A DNA stretch of 64,000 nucleotides from an uncultured Candidatus Saccharibacteria bacterium. GTDB taxonomy: Bacteria > Patescibacteriota > Saccharimonadia > Saccharimonadales > CAZARM01. The notes under the pieces are model-generated. The model searched no databases and had not been told where the DNA came from. It saw nothing but the letters and a program-made list of their open reading frames with translations. The translations under genes and the position numbers were made by a program. Below, piece after piece: positions 31,866-34,881 of this stretch; position 1 is the first letter of the stretch; each line of letters begins with the position of its first letter. The DNA is taken from assembly GCA_964487615.1 (NCBI GenBank), contig CAZARM010000005.1, positions 182 through 64,181 on the forward strand, read 5' to 3'.

Positions 31866-32729
31866 TTAACGTATGCCCCAGTGGCCTGCGCCTAAACTGT
31901 ATATTTTGCCGGTGATTTCCAGCATGGTCAGAGTTTGGTTAAAACTGGCGGTCTCTAGTTTGCTTCTGCTAAGTAACTGGGTGGAATCCGTAATGCCGGA
32001 CTGCAGGAGCTTTAAAATAAGGGTTTCTTCCTCGGTGCTGCCGAATAGATCAGTTTGTTGCTGTTTGCTCTCTCTTAACCCCAAGGCTAGCAGAATATCC
32101 GCCGAAGTCGTGACAGCTATGGCACCGGATTTAATAAGGTTATTGGTGCCTTGAGACAAGGGTGAATTAATGTTGCCGGGTACGGCCATGACGGTTCTGC
32201 CCTGATCTAAGGCAAAGTTGGCGGTGTGGATGGTGCCGCTCTTGGCAGCAGCCTCAGTTATAAGTATGCCGTCACTCAATCCCGAAACAATTCGGTTGCG
32301 AGCAATAAAGTTGAGGGGTTGGGTGGTAGATCCTGACGGATACTCGCTGACAATGGCTCCGCCCTGCTCTAGAATCCGCCGGGCCACGTGATAATTTGTG
32401 GCCGGCCCTAGTTGCTCTAAGCTAGTGCCCAACACCGCAATGGTGGAACCATGCATGTCCAGTGCGGCTTGGTGGGCGATGGCGTCCACACCGAGGGCTA
32501 AGCCACTGATAATCACCACGCCTTTATTGGCTACATCTTGGGTTAGCTGCTGGGTGACCAATTTGCCATAAGGAGTGACTTTGCGGCTGCCGACCACTGC
32601 CAAACGTGGCTTCTGAAGTAATGTCTTGAGGTCACCCAGGACATATAGCTCCTTCGGCGGATCAGGGATCATCCGAAGTATCTCGGGATAGTCGGGCGAA
32701 TCAAGCGTAAGCTTCTTGACATTGTTCAT
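31866..32729 (-). CDS. dprA: DNA-processing protein DprA (Smf)
   Basis: LAVVGSRKVTPYG ... ISGLALGVDAIAHQAAL ... TIAVLG ... SEYP is the Rossmann-like DprA core. Confidence 0.92.
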   Translation of the reverse strand: MNNVKKLTLDSPDYPEILRMIPDPPKELYVLGDLKTLLQKPRLAVVGSRKVTPYGKLVTQQLTQDVANKGVVIISGLALGVDAIAHQAALDMHGSTIAVLGTSLEQLGPATNYHVARRILEQGGAIVSEYPSGSTTQPLNFIARNRIVSGLSDGILITEAAAKSGTIHTANFALDQGRTVMAVPGNINSPLSQGTNNLIKSGAIAVTTSADILLALGLRESKQQQTDLFGSTEEETLILKLLQSGITDSTQLLSRSKLETASFNQTLTMLEITGKIYSLGAGHWGIR

Positions 32730-32745
32730 TAGATATATCTTAGTA

Positions 32746-32774
32746 TTGACACAACGACATTAATTTGCTAAAAT
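32746..32774 (+). promoter_or_regulatory. Consensus sigma-70-type promoter (TTGACA-N17-TAAAAT) firing into a non-coding region
   Basis: TTGACA 32746-32751 and TAAAAT 32769-32774. The nearest + strand CDS start is about 600 nt downstream. Confidence 0.55.
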
Positions 32775-32781
32775 TGCAATC

Positions 32782-33217
32782 CGAAGTCAGCTATATGCTG
32801 ATTTTCGTACCTTATATTGTCGTATTCTGAAACTTTATGTTTTAGGATACTCCAAAATCTAACAAATTGTTAGAGTGTTTTAGAGCGTGCTGGCCAAGTT
32901 GTTACCCTCCACTTGCTCCGGCTACCGTCCCCGAGGCGGAAGCGTTCTAAAGCATACTAACCCCTTTAAGTTAGCTCACGTAGCGGTTTGCCAAAGCGTG
33001 ACTACCCCAAAGTTTTTTGGTGGGTCCATTCACTTATGTAGCGAATCCCCAAGATTTTATCCGCTCTAGCGGATAGAGACACGGCACCGTATGGATCAAT
33101 AGTGCACGATGTTTCGCTCGGGTGGGCTTAAAGGGTGTTTTTGGGGCTTGAGCTTGTCTCGAGTCCAAAAAGGACTTCCAGCGGTGCCCACCCCCTCTGG
33201 AAGTCCTTTTTGGTAGT
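32782..33217 (+). ncRNA. Candidate unclassified structured RNA (or long cis-regulatory leader), about 430 nt
   Basis: Bounded by the promoter above and a perfect 17-bp hairpin (33165-33181 with 33197-33213, 15-nt loop) ending in TTTTT. The GC-enriched core 32880-33160 holds many local hairpins. No ORF. The strand is inferred from the promoter and terminator only. Confidence 0.4.
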
Positions 33218-33290
33218 TCAGTGTTATTGGTGCCCAGTCTGTTGTTGGTTTAAATTTTTAAATAGCTGCACTAACGACGGCACCTCATGC

Positions 33291-33338
33291 CTACAGAAAA
33301 TGTCCACTGGACATTTCTGCCCTCTGTAGACTCTTTTT
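33291..33338 (+). terminator. Second terminator/attenuator-like hairpin upstream of the 33388 ORF
   Basis: CTACAG-AAAATGTCCA-c-TGGACATTTC-tgccct-CTGTAG followed by ACTCTTTTT. Confidence 0.45.
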
Positions 33339-33387
33339 GGTTATAGGAACGATGCTATATCATGTAATAGATAAGGGTAATGATTTT

Positions 33388-33678
33388 ATGGAAAAACGTG
33401 GCAAAAAAGTCTATTTGACGATTCAAGAGCAGATACTATCAGGCTACCCTAGCCCCATTGATGTTGATGAATTTGATAAACACAAAGAGAGAGTTGCGGC
33501 GGAAACAGAGATTGACCGACTAGAGGCTATGCAAGCAGCTGATGACGATGAACTAACTCACGAGGAACGCGCGAGCCTGCCTGCCAATTTAGAACGTGCG
33601 CGTATGAAATCTAAAATAACTCGAGGCATTGGCGCGACCATGGCAACAGAAACTATAGTTGTTGGCGGCGATAGCTAA
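33388..33678 (+). CDS. Hypothetical small acidic protein
   Basis: ATG 33388 with an AAGGG SD (the track start 33337 is a TTG inside the hairpin tail). 96 aa. No known domain. Confidence 0.5.
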   Translation: MEKRGKKVYLTIQEQILSGYPSPIDVDEFDKHKERVAAETEIDRLEAMQAADDDELTHEERASLPANLERARMKSKITRGIGATMATETIVVGGDS

Positions 33679-33730
33679 TAGGAGGCATTATTGTAATCAG
33701 GTATAGGAGTATGTTAAACATACTTTGCTT

Positions 33731-34249
33731 ATGAGTGAATTTGTAAGAGGCCGCGTGGTAGAAATTCCTGGTTCGAACGCTGCTGTAATCGACGGCCTAG
33801 CCGAACACGCTGGGCTGACGCCTGAGGAATACTTAGAGCAAGGAATCGTCATAGTGCTATTCTGCGCTGAACAAGCAGTGCTGAATCAGCAAGTCGACAG
33901 GACGACGGCCATATATTTTGAGATGGAACCCGATGTTTATGAAGGCTGGTTGTTCCCGTTAGTTCTTGAAGAAGCAGTCCGTGTGGAGTCGGGCCAAACC
34001 TCACTTGATGATCTTGAAGTCGTGGATCCTTTTTTAGTAGACCAGCCAGAGGCTGTTGAAATAGGGCTGAATGAAGCACAGGAAGAAAAAATGCGACATT
34101 GGGCGCCATTATTAGGTATAACGCTAGATGATTTCATCGAGAATGCGTTATATCTGCGTTGGCAATGGGCACTTGCTCGCCAAAAATATGGTCGTGTTCT
34201 AATAGAAGAAGTCGACGGTACTTTCGTTGAGGTAAATGCTAATTTCTAG
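33731..34249 (+). CDS. Hypothetical acidic protein
   Basis: 172 aa from ATG 33731. No known domain. The stop shares a CTAG with the convergent pth stop. Confidence 0.5.
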   Translation: MSEFVRGRVVEIPGSNAAVIDGLAEHAGLTPEEYLEQGIVIVLFCAEQAVLNQQVDRTTAIYFEMEPDVYEGWLFPLVLEEAVRVESGQTSLDDLEVVDPFLVDQPEAVEIGLNEAQEEKMRHWAPLLGITLDDFIENALYLRWQWALARQKYGRVLIEEVDGTFVEVNANF

Positions 34250-34881
34250 ACTAGAAAGCTGCGGGTTTCGGGGGTTAAGGTGCCTTGGTAGAGAGATTCG
34301 GTTAGGATGCTGACTACTTCAGCCCTTAGCGCCTTGAGATGAGCCTGCTCTTCCTTATTAAACTTGGCTAGCACAAAATCTGCTCCTTCCATTTTGGTTG
34401 GCGCTTGGATGCCGATGCGTACTCTACCGAAGTCTTCGCCGAGATGTTGGATTAACGACTTTAAGCCATTGTTGCCGGCAGCTGATCCGCCCAGACGCAT
34501 ACGGATTTGGCCAAATGGTATATCCAGTTCATCATGGACGACAACTATGTCACTTTGAGCGATTTTGTAGAAGTTACTCATCGCTTGGATGGCTTCACCG
34601 CTCAGATTCATCATGGTGGTTGGTTTGCACAAAATAACACGAGCGCCGCCCAAAGTTTTGGATACCAACAGGCATTTCAAATCTTTCTTCTCTGACCACT
34701 TGCCAAACTCGTGGGCCTCGGCGAATGCGTCAATACAAGCAAAGCCAATGTTGTGGCGGGTCCCATCAAATTTCTTGCCCTTGTTGCCCAAGCCAACAAC
34801 TAGAACCGTCCTTTCCTGCCCTAAAGAATATAACGCCCGCTTCTCGCTGCTCAAAAATGGATTCTTCTGGAATAGTCCCAT
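34246..34881 (-). CDS. pth: Peptidyl-tRNA hydrolase
   Basis: VVGLGNKGKKFDGTRHNIGF ... HDELD ... GGSAAGNNGLKS are canonical Pth motifs. About 25 aa of N-terminal extension. Confidence 0.93.
   Translation of the reverse strand: MGLFQKNPFLSSEKRALYSLGQERTVLVVGLGNKGKKFDGTRHNIGFACIDAFAEAHEFGKWSEKKDLKCLLVSKTLGGARVILCKPTTMMNLSGEAIQAMSNFYKIAQSDIVVVHDELDIPFGQIRMRLGGSAAGNNGLKSLIQHLGEDFGRVRIGIQAPTKMEGADFVLAKFNKEEQAHLKALRAEVVSILTESLYQGTLTPETRSFLV

What the first reader, a model, noticed from the sequence alone, without database searches (positions are those of the whole stretch)
32746..33340. Unclassified RNA locus: consensus promoter, about 430-nt GC-enriched non-coding core and two strong terminator-like hairpins between dprA and two orphan genes
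The 600-bp gap between divergent dprA and the 33388 ORF has no credible ORF. It does contain a near-consensus promoter TTGACA-N17-TAAAAT (32746-32774) pointing rightwards. It also contains a GC-enriched core (32880-33160) full of local hairpins, for example TATCCGC/GCGGATA at 33058-33075 and GAGACA...TGTCTC at 33076-33160. A perfect 17-bp hairpin CCAAAAAGGACTTCCAG/CTGGAAGTCCTTTTTGG (33165-33213) ends in a T-run. A second long hairpin plus T-run lies at 33291-33338. GGTGCC(CA) occurs twice and its complement GGCACC twice (33081, 33184, 33229, 33279), which allows long-range pairing. This could be an independent sRNA of about 430 nt. It could also be a tandem-attenuator leader or riboswitch controlling the downstream orphan acidic proteins. 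I could not match it to a known class by eye.
Basis: partly seen in the sequence, partly recalled or inferred. Interest (0 to 1): 0.66.

Follow-up and report, generated by a model that had tools for sequence, protein, structure and literature searches.

The report
New large structured RNA of Saccharibacteria
The gap next to dprA holds a stand-alone gene for a roughly 435-nt, intricately folded non-coding RNA that is conserved across Saccharibacteria, matches no catalogued RNA family, and ends in a hairpin whose 15-nt loop also occurs in many phage RNAs.

Summary
Window 32746-33216 (+) is an independent RNA gene. It has a near-consensus extended -10 promoter, a multi-helix RNA of about 435 nt, and a 17-bp terminal hairpin.

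Homologous DNA sits at the same place, divergent from dprA and convergent with pth, in 72 of 80 Saccharibacteria dprA loci and in 25 metagenome contigs. Three deeper lineages carry reduced forms.

On 36 sequences, 72 proposed pairs are 91% paired, against 34-52% in slid controls, and 43 show compensatory changes. G-U pairs outnumber A-C mismatches 201 to 22, which fixes the + strand. Rfam 15 and ARAGORN find nothing, so this is not RNase P RNA, tmRNA, 6S or SRP RNA.

It is not a leader. The downstream orphan genes are a lineage-specific insertion, and in 12 relatives pth ends within about 120 nt of the loop.

The terminal loop CGGUGCCCACCCCCU is invariant. It can pair with an invariant GGGUGGG strand upstream to form a pseudoknot. 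The same loop on unrelated stems occurs in 47 viral contigs, between late phage genes and inside a YrlA-like RNA.

Function is unknown. My best guess is a housekeeping RNA or RNP whose loop is a recognition handle that phages copy.

The parts
32746..32774 (+). Promoter: -35 TTGACA (32746-32751) and extended -10 TGCTAAAAT (32766-32774). Inferred transcription start near 32781.
   Evidence: scores it 11/12 with TG. A TTGACA-like box, 16-18 nt spacer and TAnnnT box are kept in 60 of 61 homologues. These columns are near-invariant.
32781..33216 (+). The RNA itself, about 435 nt, called RNA1 in this report.
   Evidence: nhmmer and HMM hits cover this span in 72 of 80 dprA loci and 25 metagenome contigs. 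Covariation is shown. G-U 201 against A-C 22 fixes the strand.
32782..32807 (+). P1, the 5' hairpin.
   Evidence: 8 of 10 pairs show changes on both sides (helix 1).
32807..32816 (+). Conserved single-stranded block GUACCUUAUA, followed by CCCC in most relatives.
   Evidence: Near-invariant columns. No pairing partner was found.
32869..32961 (+). Long helix P2'/P3 (32869-32873 and 32877-32887 pairing with 32943-32953 and 32957-32961). It encloses a junction.
   Evidence: RNAalifold finds it. In one search helix 4, 8 of 11 pairs are compensatory and 96% are paired.
32896..32914 (+). P4a hairpin (AAGU/ACUU) presenting the invariant loop UGUUACCCUCC. The core ACCCUCC resembles the anti-Shine-Dalgarno sequence.
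   Evidence: Invariant TACCCTCCAC columns. ACCCUCC is also kept in the reduced forms L062-L064.
32925..32939 (+). P5, a variable hairpin.
   Evidence: A hairpin of different sequence sits here in relatives. It was not scored formally because MAFFT misaligns it.
32962..32970 (+). P6 5' strand CCCUUUAAG, pairing with 33127-33135.
   Evidence: helix 6: 100% paired, with the terminal pair C-G in 27 sequences and G-C in 9. L064 has CCCUUUCAU / AUGAAAGGG.
32971..33039 (+). P7, a variable hairpin region.
   Evidence: Each homologue folds a strong but unrelated hairpin here.
33040..33118 (+). P8 (33040-33045 with 33113-33118) enclosing P9 (33059-33074) and P10/P11 (33079-33088 with 33102-33112).
   Evidence: helices 7 and 8: 5 of 6 and 4 of 5 pairs are compensatory. 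The P9 hairpin varies in sequence between relatives.
33120..33126 (+). GGGUGGG, the proposed pseudoknot strand (receptor) for the terminal loop.
   Evidence: Invariant. It is complementary to 33187-33193. Both partners are invariant, so there is no covariation test (helix 9).
33127..33135 (+). P6 3' strand CUUAAAGGG.
   Evidence: See P6.
33144..33166 (+). P12, an optional hairpin.
   Evidence: Present in about two thirds of homologues and absent in the rest.
33165..33213 (+). P13, the terminal hairpin and bidirectional terminator. The stem is 33165-33181 with 33197-33213. The 15-nt loop CGGUGCCCACCCCCU is 33182-33196.
   Evidence: 65 sequences: 93% paired, 14 of 15 pairs compensatory, 0 of 500 shuffles reach the observed values. 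The loop is invariant.
33229..33340 (.). Accessory downstream module. It is not part of the conserved RNA, and its strand is unresolved.
   Evidence: Related modules lie directly after the RNA in about 14 loci and are tandem in L002 and L134. Only L012 and L109 match the window's version.
31866..32729 (-). dprA, the divergent neighbour. Its start codon is 16 nt from the RNA's -35 box.
33388..34249 (+). Two orphan ORFs (96 and 174 aa), a lineage-specific insertion between the RNA and pth.
   Evidence: orfA96 has homologues only in L007, L045 and L109, and orfB174 has none. orfA96 has no Pfam match; orfB174 was not scanned.
34246..34881 (-). pth, the conserved convergent neighbour.

Best explanation
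Window 32781-33216 (+) is a free-standing gene for a new family of large structured RNA specific to Saccharibacteria.

Shown:
- It is transcribed from its own strong sigma-70-type promoter.
- It ends at a 17-bp hairpin that also serves as a bidirectional terminator against the convergent pth.
- It folds into a 5' hairpin, a long helix presenting an invariant ACCCUCC loop, and a 3' multi-helix domain closed by P6.

Inferred:
- The invariant terminal loop (GCCCACCC) docks on the invariant GGGUGGG strand beside P6, forming an H-type pseudoknot.
- The RNA acts in trans as a constitutive housekeeping RNA or RNP scaffold, not as a cis regulator.
- Its terminal stem-loop is a recognition handle for a conserved partner. 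That partner is either the RNA's own GGGUGGG receptor, used in cis or between molecules, or a host protein.
- Phages have grafted the same handle onto their late mRNAs, a small RNA and a Y-RNA-like RNA in order to engage that partner.
For: Conservation and synteny: homologous DNA lies directly upstream of dprA in 72 of 80 Saccharibacteria loci by HMM. It also lies between dprA and pth in every metagenome contig that is long enough to show the flanks. Reduced forms occur in L062-L064.

Structure: 72 pairs are 90.9% paired, against 34-52% when the partners are slid. 43 pairs have changes on both sides, and 0 of 500 shuffles reach the observed values. The terminal hairpin alone is 93% paired with 14 of 15 pairs compensatory.

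Strand: G-U 201 against A-C 22. The promoter is kept in 60 of 61 homologues. Folding z-scores are -7.2 on the + strand and -4.8 on the - strand.

Not coding: inter-block lengths show no multiple-of-three pattern.

Not a known family: there is no Rfam hit at the gathering threshold or at E<=10, in the window or in 5 homologues. ARAGORN finds no tmRNA.

Not a leader: the downstream content is variable, and pth ends within about 120 nt of the loop in 12 loci.

The handle: the exact loop 15-mer sits in hairpins with stems of 7-18 bp in 47 of 87 IMG/VR hits. Those stems show G-U 40 against A-C 10. The hairpins are co-oriented with capsid, lysis and terminase genes. None of the 46 has a nearby GGGUGGG. 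One hairpin replaces the 3-nt cap of the acceptor-like stem of a YrlA-like RNA. One phage-like contig, L273, carries a full copy of the RNA without dprA.
Against: - No expression data were available, so the transcription start, the 3' end and the abundance are inferred from sequence only.
- The pseudoknot cannot be tested by covariation because both strands are invariant. In the reduced forms both partners are changed and no clear replacement pairing was seen.
- The partner of the loop is unknown.
- The hosts of the viral contigs are unknown, so the link between phage hairpins and this RNA rests on the shared loop and on one phage-borne copy.
- No function is demonstrated.
- Part of the conserved 5' block could be conserved because it serves as the dprA promoter on the other strand.
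Confidence: 0.6

Rival explanations
1. It is a trans-acting base-pairing regulator. The exposed C-rich elements (the ACCCUCC loop, the CCCACCCCCUC loop and the 5' CCCC block) pair with G-rich Shine-Dalgarno regions of mRNAs, as the C-rich motifs of RsaE/RoxS do, and repress or sequester them.
For: Three or four invariant C-rich stretches sit in predicted loops or linkers. ACCCUCC resembles the 16S anti-SD sequence, which I state from general knowledge. The promoter and terminator are typical of an sRNA gene.
Against: At 435 nt with at least 10 covarying helices, it is far more elaborate than known seed-pairing sRNAs. The terminal loop has a perfect internal partner. No enriched complementary sites occur in the 64-kb window. 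Rfam finds no RsaE/RoxS match.
Confidence: 0.15
2. It regulates dprA (competence) in cis. Divergent, overlapping transcription from the strong RNA promoter interferes with the dprA promoter or is antisense to the dprA 5' UTR.
For: The dprA start codon is 16 nt from the -35 box, so the dprA promoter must lie inside the RNA gene. The synteny is invariant. The conserved block GTACCTTATA reads TATAAG on the dprA strand, which is visible directly in the sequence.
Against: Interference needs only a promoter, not 400 nt of covarying structure and an invariant 3' loop. The RNA persists where only a short dprA fragment (about 40 codons) is detectable (L092, L135) and on a contig without dprA (L273). 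No sigma-70-like site was found on the - strand in 32730-33340.
Confidence: 0.08
3. It is a highly diverged form of a universal housekeeping RNA (RNase P RNA, tmRNA, 6S RNA or SRP RNA) that the standard models miss, as has been reported for some CPR RNase P RNAs.
For: The size is in the RNase P and tmRNA range. The gene is single-copy, nearly universal in the lineage and has a strong promoter. CPR RNase P RNAs can fall below Rfam thresholds (PMC8172020). One phage-like contig carries a copy, as phages sometimes do for tmRNA.
Against: No Rfam match appears even at E<=10 in the window or in 5 relatives, and ARAGORN is negative. The ends do not pair with each other. There is no tRNA-like T-arm or acceptor stem, no GGAAAGUCC / ACAGAA...GGCUUA P4 strands, no 6S-type rod with a central bubble, and no SRP domain IV motif.
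Confidence: 0.05
4. It is a cis-acting leader, attenuator or riboswitch for the genes downstream of it.
For: In the window, two co-oriented ORFs follow, and there are two terminator-like hairpins.
Against: The downstream content is not conserved. In 12 loci the next gene is the convergent pth, 20-70 nt away. orfA96 has homologues in only 3 of about 100 loci and orfB174 in none. Some downstream ORFs in relatives are preceded by TATAAT-like sequences of their own (by eye, e.g. L024, L027, L029).
Confidence: 0.03
5. The terminal hairpin is conserved mainly as an attachment site (attB) for integrating phages, as the 3' ends of tRNA and tmRNA genes are. The viral hairpins would then be attP sites.
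For: The interval after the RNA is a variable insertion zone. Partial copies of the loop and 3' arm occur downstream. The loop is identical in hosts and viruses.
Against: None of 138 ORFs flanking the viral hairpins matches an integrase. The hairpins lie inside co-oriented late operons. Their stems show the G-U bias of RNA rather than the symmetry expected of DNA sites. Only 9 of 46 carry the U-tail that a copy of the gene's 3' end would have.
Confidence: 0.03

Closest known systems
Large ornate bacterial RNAs of unknown function (ROOL, GOLLD, OLE, raiA motif RNA)
   Same: Several hundred nucleotides long, with many covarying helices and pseudoknots. They are stand-alone genes restricted to particular lineages and have no known function. 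ROOL and GOLLD also occur in phages and prophages, and they assemble through intermolecular loop contacts (PMC12286853, listed; the rest is from general knowledge).
   Different: No sequence or structure match to their Rfam models. The architecture is different. This RNA sits at a fixed chromosomal position (pth-RNA-dprA) and is close to universal within Saccharibacteria. Oligomerisation has not been tested.
Housekeeping RNAs RNase P RNA, tmRNA and 6S RNA
   Same: Similar size range, single copy, strong constitutive-type promoter, near-universal in the lineage, a conserved core with variable peripheral hairpins, and a pseudoknot.
   Different: None of their defining elements is present, and there are no model matches.
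C-rich-motif sRNAs (RsaE/RoxS)
   Same: Several invariant C-rich unpaired motifs able to pair with Shine-Dalgarno-like G-rich sequences. An independent gene with an intrinsic terminator.
   Different: Four times larger and structurally complex. One C-rich motif has an internal partner. No Rfam match.
Modular tethering RNAs (bacterial Y RNA / YrlA)
   Same: The terminal stem-loop behaves as a portable module. In phage contig L234 it is inserted into the cap of the acceptor-like stem of a YrlA-like RNA. Y RNAs work by tethering partners, which I state from general knowledge.
   Different: The window RNA has no tRNA-like domain and no Ro-binding stem. The YrlA match is in a viral contig, not in the window.

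Membership tests
Bacterial RNase P RNA (RF00010/RF00011) | Match to the covariance model. Diverged CPR forms still score when thresholds are lowered. | tested here: not met
   No hit at E<=10 on 32600-33500 or on 5 homologous loci. A score of only 5-15 bits cannot be excluded.
Bacterial RNase P RNA (RF00010/RF00011) | P1 formed by the 5' and 3' ends, and a P4 pseudoknot with conserved GGAAAGUCC and ACAGAA..GGCUUA strands. | tested here: not met
   The ends do not pair. The only GGAAGUCC is in the window's terminal stem, which covaries away in relatives.
tmRNA | A tRNA-like domain (acceptor stem, T-arm, CCA end) and a tag reading frame. | tested here: not met
   ARAGORN finds no tmRNA in the window. 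There is no Rfam tmRNA hit, including permuted forms. No T-loop appears in the conserved blocks.
6S RNA | A rod about 180 nt long formed by the 5' and 3' ends with a large central bubble, and a match to RF00013. | tested here: not met
   The covarying helices define a multi-domain fold with local 5' and 3' hairpins. There is no Rfam hit.
Cis-regulatory leader / riboswitch / attenuator | It lies upstream of, and is co-oriented with, a gene or gene class that is conserved across the species carrying it. | tested here: not met
   The downstream content is variable, and pth is convergent and directly adjacent in 12 loci.
Cis-regulatory leader / riboswitch / attenuator | Match to a known riboswitch or leader model. 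| tested here: not met
ROOL / GOLLD / OLE / raiA large RNAs | Match to the family covariance models. | tested here: not met
ROOL / GOLLD / OLE / raiA large RNAs | Homo-oligomeric assembly through intermolecular contacts. | not testable with these tools
   This needs native gels or cryo-EM. The loop-receptor complementarity (33120-33126 with 33187-33193) would allow it.
Independent structured ncRNA gene (generic) | Its own promoter and terminator, conservation beyond that of neighbouring non-coding DNA, covarying base pairs, and no coding signal. | tested here: met
Independent structured ncRNA gene (generic) | A discrete transcript detected in cells. | not testable with these tools
   No transcriptome data were available. 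The TM7x transcriptome preprint mentions no validated small RNAs.
Phage attachment site at the 3' end of an RNA gene | An integrase gene next to the phage copy (attP), and direct repeats flanking proviruses. | tested here: not met
   No integrase family appears among the 25 most frequent of the 60 Pfam families matched by the 138 flanking ORFs. The hairpins lie inside late operons.

The most novel reading that the evidence does not exclude
The RNA is a hub that recognises hairpins carrying the GCCCACCC loop through its GGGUGGG strand. Its own 3' hairpin occupies that site in cis, or links copies of the RNA into an assembly. Phage transcripts that carry the same hairpin (late mRNAs, a small RNA, a Y-RNA-like RNA) dock onto it in trans to be processed, stabilised or translated. 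This would be a previously unknown RNA-RNA recognition system, possibly a ribozyme or RNP, shared by CPR bacteria and their phages.
Probability: 0.2. Interest if true: 0.92.

Novelty: categorically new. Interest (0 to 1): 0.8.

Why it matters
Saccharibacteria are ultra-small episymbionts with minimal genomes of about 1 Mb and short intergenic regions. Keeping a 435-nt non-coding gene at a fixed locus across the whole lineage implies an important function.

No RNA of this kind is in Rfam 15, and none turned up in the literature I could search. It would therefore add a new large structured RNA class from the candidate phyla radiation, where almost nothing is known about RNA biology.

The invariant loop shared with dozens of phage contigs offers a direct experimental handle. 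The hairpin can be used for pull-downs, and phage-host assignment can follow from it. The shared loop also suggests a host factor or RNA site that phages exploit.

Several Saccharibacteria are now cultivable and genetically tractable, so the predictions can be tested.

Tried and rejected
1. Known families. Rfam at the gathering threshold on the whole window, and at E<=10 on the region and on 5 homologous loci, gave only noise such as suhB and mir. ARAGORN found no tmRNA.

2. tRNA gene split by a group I intron, an idea prompted by PMC13011429. No tRNA halves flank the region and there is no intron match.

3. Protein coding. The ORFs are short and not conserved, and spacing varies without a multiple-of-three pattern.

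4. Minus-strand RNA, or a dprA 5' UTR read through from pth. The G-U to A-C ratio, the conserved + strand promoter and the folding z-scores all argue against it.

5. Leader of the orphan genes. Rejected on synteny.

6. Attachment site for phages. Rejected: no integrase appears among the 25 most frequent of the 60 Pfam families matched by the 138 flanking ORFs, and the hairpins lie inside late operons.

7. A genome-wide terminator type or repeat. The loop motif occurs once per host locus and once in the 64-kb window.

8. Trans targets in the window for the two C-rich loops. No enrichment.

9. Further phage-borne full copies. The 16-mer from the ACCCUCC loop gave 25 viral hits, all chance apart from L273.

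10. MAFFT plus RNAalifold on whole domains recovered only the P3 helix, because the variable hairpins misalign. Q-INS-i was not installed. I therefore anchored the helices on window coordinates.

11. Seven literature searches found no description of this RNA or of the loop sequence.
Full report
**What is there.** The 660-bp interval between dprA (31866-32729, minus strand) and the first orphan ORF (33388) contains the best sigma-70-like site of the neighbourhood. This is TTGACA-N17-TAAAAT at 32746-32774, scoring 11/12, with a TG that makes the -10 box extended. The only ORFs are short and start with GTG. The plus strand from about 32781 to 33216 folds much better than shuffled sequence (z = -7.2), against z = -4.8 for the minus strand. 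The GC enrichment holds only against the AT-rich flanks.

**Known families.** Rfam 15 gives nothing for this region at the gathering threshold. At E<=10 it gives only noise, both in the window and in five homologous loci. ARAGORN finds three tRNAs elsewhere in the window and no tmRNA.

**Organism and conservation.** The 80 best DprA relatives in the species-representative genome set are nearly all Saccharibacteria MAGs. A single-sequence nhmmer search with 32730-33390 hit DNA directly upstream of dprA in about 68 of these loci. An HMM raised this to 72 of 80.
- Two of the eight misses, L008 and L049, have no upstream sequence.
- Three misses, L062-L064, carry a recognisable reduced form of about 230-250 nt. 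It has the same promoter, a long helix presenting ACCCUCC, the CCCUUU/AAAGGG helix and a terminal hairpin.
- Three misses, L078-L080, are not Saccharibacteria and lack the RNA.

Gene order is der-pth-[RNA]-dprA-topA throughout. The RNA is divergent from dprA and convergent with pth. A metagenome scan with the loop 15-mer found 25 further copies. All those with enough flank lie between dprA and pth.

**Not a leader.** orfA96 has homologues only in L007, L045 and L109, and orfB174 has none. The distance from the terminal loop to the end of pth runs from about 20 nt to 3.7 kb. It is at most 120 nt in 12 loci and more than 400 nt in 26. The stretch after the RNA is therefore a variable insertion zone, and the RNA is not tied to any downstream gene.

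**Structure.** Conservation is blocky: the promoter, GUACCUUAUA, GUUAGAUUGUUUUAGAGCG, AGUUGUUACCCUCCACUU, CUCUAAAACAAACUAACCCCUUUAA, GAUGCUUCGCUGGGUGGGUUGAAGGGUG and CAGCGGUGCCCACCCCCUCUGG. Segments of variable length separate the blocks, and their lengths show no multiple-of-three bias.

For the terminal hairpin, 65 sequences aligned without gaps:
- 93% of cells are paired, against 68.5% in shuffles and 38-56% when partners are slid.
- 14 of 15 pairs show changes on both sides, in 217 cells.
- 0 of 500 shuffles reach the observed values.

For the whole RNA, I aligned 36 sequences and projected a window-based model onto the alignment:
- 72 pairs are 90.9% paired, against 34-52% when slid.
- 43 pairs are compensatory, in 235 cells.
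- 0 of 500 shuffles reach any of the five measures.
- P1, P3, P6, P8, P10 and P13 are each supported.

Variable segments fold into strong hairpins of unrelated sequence at equivalent positions. G-U pairs outnumber A-C mismatches 201 to 22. Together with the promoter being kept in 60 of 61 homologues, this fixes the plus strand.

**Invariant elements.** Two features stand out.
1. The apical loop of P4a always contains ACCCUCC, even in the reduced forms. It resembles the anti-Shine-Dalgarno sequence, which I state from general knowledge.
2. The 15-nt loop of the terminal hairpin, CGGUGCCCACCCCCU, is identical in 64 host loci while its stem changes freely. Its GCCCACCC is perfectly complementary to the invariant GGGUGGG(C/U) immediately 5' of the P6 3' strand (33120-33126). 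This would make an H-type pseudoknot stacked on P6.

Because neither side varies, covariation cannot test this pairing (helix 9). In L065, L066 and L071 the loop drifts to GAUGCCCACCCUUAC, or UUCUGCCCACCCUUAC in L065, but keeps GCCCACCC, and the receptor is kept. In L062-L064 both are replaced. This pattern is consistent with the pseudoknot but weak as evidence.

**The loop outside the host gene.** In host DNA the motif occurs once per locus and once in the 64-kb window. The exact 15-mer gave 87 instances in 86 IMG/VR stretches, which is about the number expected by chance. However, stem length in the fixed register is bimodal. Forty instances have 0-5 bp and 47 have 7-18 bp of unrelated sequence, with G-U 40 against A-C 10. 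These 47 are therefore RNA hairpins on the motif strand.
- They lie mostly between co-oriented genes.
- The most frequent Pfam families among the 138 flanking ORFs are capsid proteins, amidase, lysozyme-like proteins and terminases, with no integrase among the 25 most frequent families.
- Only 9 of 46 are followed by a T-rich tail, and none has GGGUGGG within 200 nt.
- One subgroup shares a fixed intercistronic layout: stop codon, hairpin, a second small hairpin, AAGGAG, then ATG.
- In L233 and L234 the hairpin is a 47-nt insertion replacing the 3-nt cap of the acceptor-like stem of a YrlA-like RNA (RF02553, E = 6e-7, below the gathering score).
- Metagenome contig L148, which encodes an HNH-motif ORF (judged from its sequence; no family search was run on L148), has a predicted RNA of about 90 nt ending in the hairpin.
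- Viral contig L273 encodes RecT, a PD-(D/E)XK-FtsK fusion, putative DNA methylases (judged by eye from N-terminal sequence) and a KhpA-like KH protein. It carries a complete copy of the RNA with an intact promoter but no dprA, plus a separate hairpin of the same kind.
- A second viral scan with the ACCCUCC-loop 16-mer found no other full copies.

**The second hairpin.** Window 33229-33340 belongs to an accessory module. It begins with GGUGCCCAG, which copies the 5' part of the loop. It contains two or three covarying hairpins. It ends with C(A)CCCUC, an arm and a U-run, which copy the 3' part of the loop, the 3' arm and the tail. A clearer version of about 113 nt lies directly after the RNA in 13 loci, tandem in L002 and L134. 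The window's version matches only L012 and L109. Its strand and origin remain unexplained.

**Interpretation.** The locus is a real, independent, structured RNA gene of a family not represented in Rfam 15. Seven full-text searches, including one for the loop sequence itself, found no description of it.

It lacks the defining elements of RNase P RNA, tmRNA, 6S RNA and SRP RNA. CPR RNase P RNAs can be diverged (PMC8172020), but they retain features that are absent here.

I favour a constitutive trans-acting RNA or RNP whose terminal stem-loop is a recognition handle. Phages graft the same loop onto unrelated RNAs without a local receptor, so there must be a trans partner. That partner would be either the RNA's own GGGUGGG site or a host protein. 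This step is inference.

The alternatives are a C-rich seed-pairing regulator, interference with dprA, a diverged housekeeping RNA, a leader, and an attachment site. Each is scored in the rival explanations with its evidence. The attachment-site and leader readings were tested and not supported.

**Limits.**
- There are no expression data.
- The transcript ends are inferred.
- The pseudoknot is untested.
- The hosts of the viral contigs are unknown.
- Whether canonical rnpB, ssrA, ssrS and ffs exist in the same genomes could not be checked here.

Noticed in passing
IMG/VR loci L201-L285 (e.g. L226:5305, L207:2870, L254:3038, L277:8010, L285:11491); metagenome L148:7484, L116:1103: A portable RNA hairpin: stems of 7-18 bp of unrelated sequence around the invariant loop CGGUGCCCACCCCCU. 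It occurs in 47 viral contigs, mostly between co-oriented late genes (capsid, lysis, terminase). One subgroup shares a fixed layout: stop codon, hairpin, CCAGCnnnGCUGG hairpin, AAGGAG, ATG.
   Followed up: partly
L234:7426-7533 (-) and L233 around 9508 (-): A phage-encoded YrlA-like (Y RNA-like) RNA. It has a permuted tRNA-like domain closed by a 5'/3' stem. The 3-nt cap of the acceptor-like stem is replaced by a 47-nt hairpin carrying the same loop (RF02553, 37.7 bits, E = 6e-7, below the gathering score). No Rsr gene was seen among the neighbouring ORFs.
   Followed up: partly
L273:7926-8396 (+) and L273:6863-6877 (-): A viral or MGE contig encoding RecT, a PD-(D/E)XK-FtsK fusion, putative methylases (by eye, not Pfam-tested) and a KhpA-like KH protein. 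It carries a complete, promoter-bearing copy of the RNA without dprA or pth, plus a separate hairpin with the same loop upstream of its RecT gene.
   Followed up: partly
window 33229-33340; L002:2271-2383, L098:3080-3192, L134:380-609, L021, L001, L051, L019, L044, L028, L022, L014, L060, L176: An accessory structured module of about 113 nt, found only immediately after the RNA and sometimes tandem. It looks like a copy of the terminal loop and 3' arm with a 95-nt structured insertion and no 5' arm. Its strand is ambiguous: hairpin a favours the minus strand, while hairpin c gives mixed signals. Its origin is unexplained.
   Followed up: partly
L062:5700-5990, L063:430-720, L064:5650-5940 (minus strand of each locus): Reduced forms of the RNA, about 230-250 nt, in deeper Saccharibacteria lineages. 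They keep the promoter, a 20-bp rod presenting CUCACCCUCCUUUU, the CCCUUU/AAAGGG helix and a terminator hairpin with a different loop. They lack the GGGUGGG/GCCCACCC pair.
   Followed up: partly
window 32807-32835 (read on the minus strand): The conserved blocks GTACCTTATA and ATTCTAAC read TATAAG and TAGAAT on the dprA strand. They could be the -10 boxes of the dprA promoter, which must lie inside the RNA gene because only 16 nt separate the dprA ATG from the RNA's -35 box.
   Followed up: no
window 33388-33678 and 33725-34249: Two acidic orphan ORFs. orfA96 has no Pfam match; orfB174 was not scanned. They are inserted between the RNA and pth. orfA96 has homologues only in L007, L045 and L109. 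The RNA-to-pth interval is a variable insertion zone across the lineage, from 20 nt to 3.7 kb.
   Followed up: partly
L092:11714-11839 and L135:5463-5588: In these two near-identical metagenome contigs only a short dprA fragment is detectable next to an intact RNA gene. This suggests that dprA can decay while the RNA is kept.
   Followed up: no
window 32823-32849: A window-specific extra hairpin (UAUUCUGAAAC/GUUUUAGGAUA). It looks like a duplication of the AUUCUAAC...GUUAGA stem that follows it.
   Followed up: no
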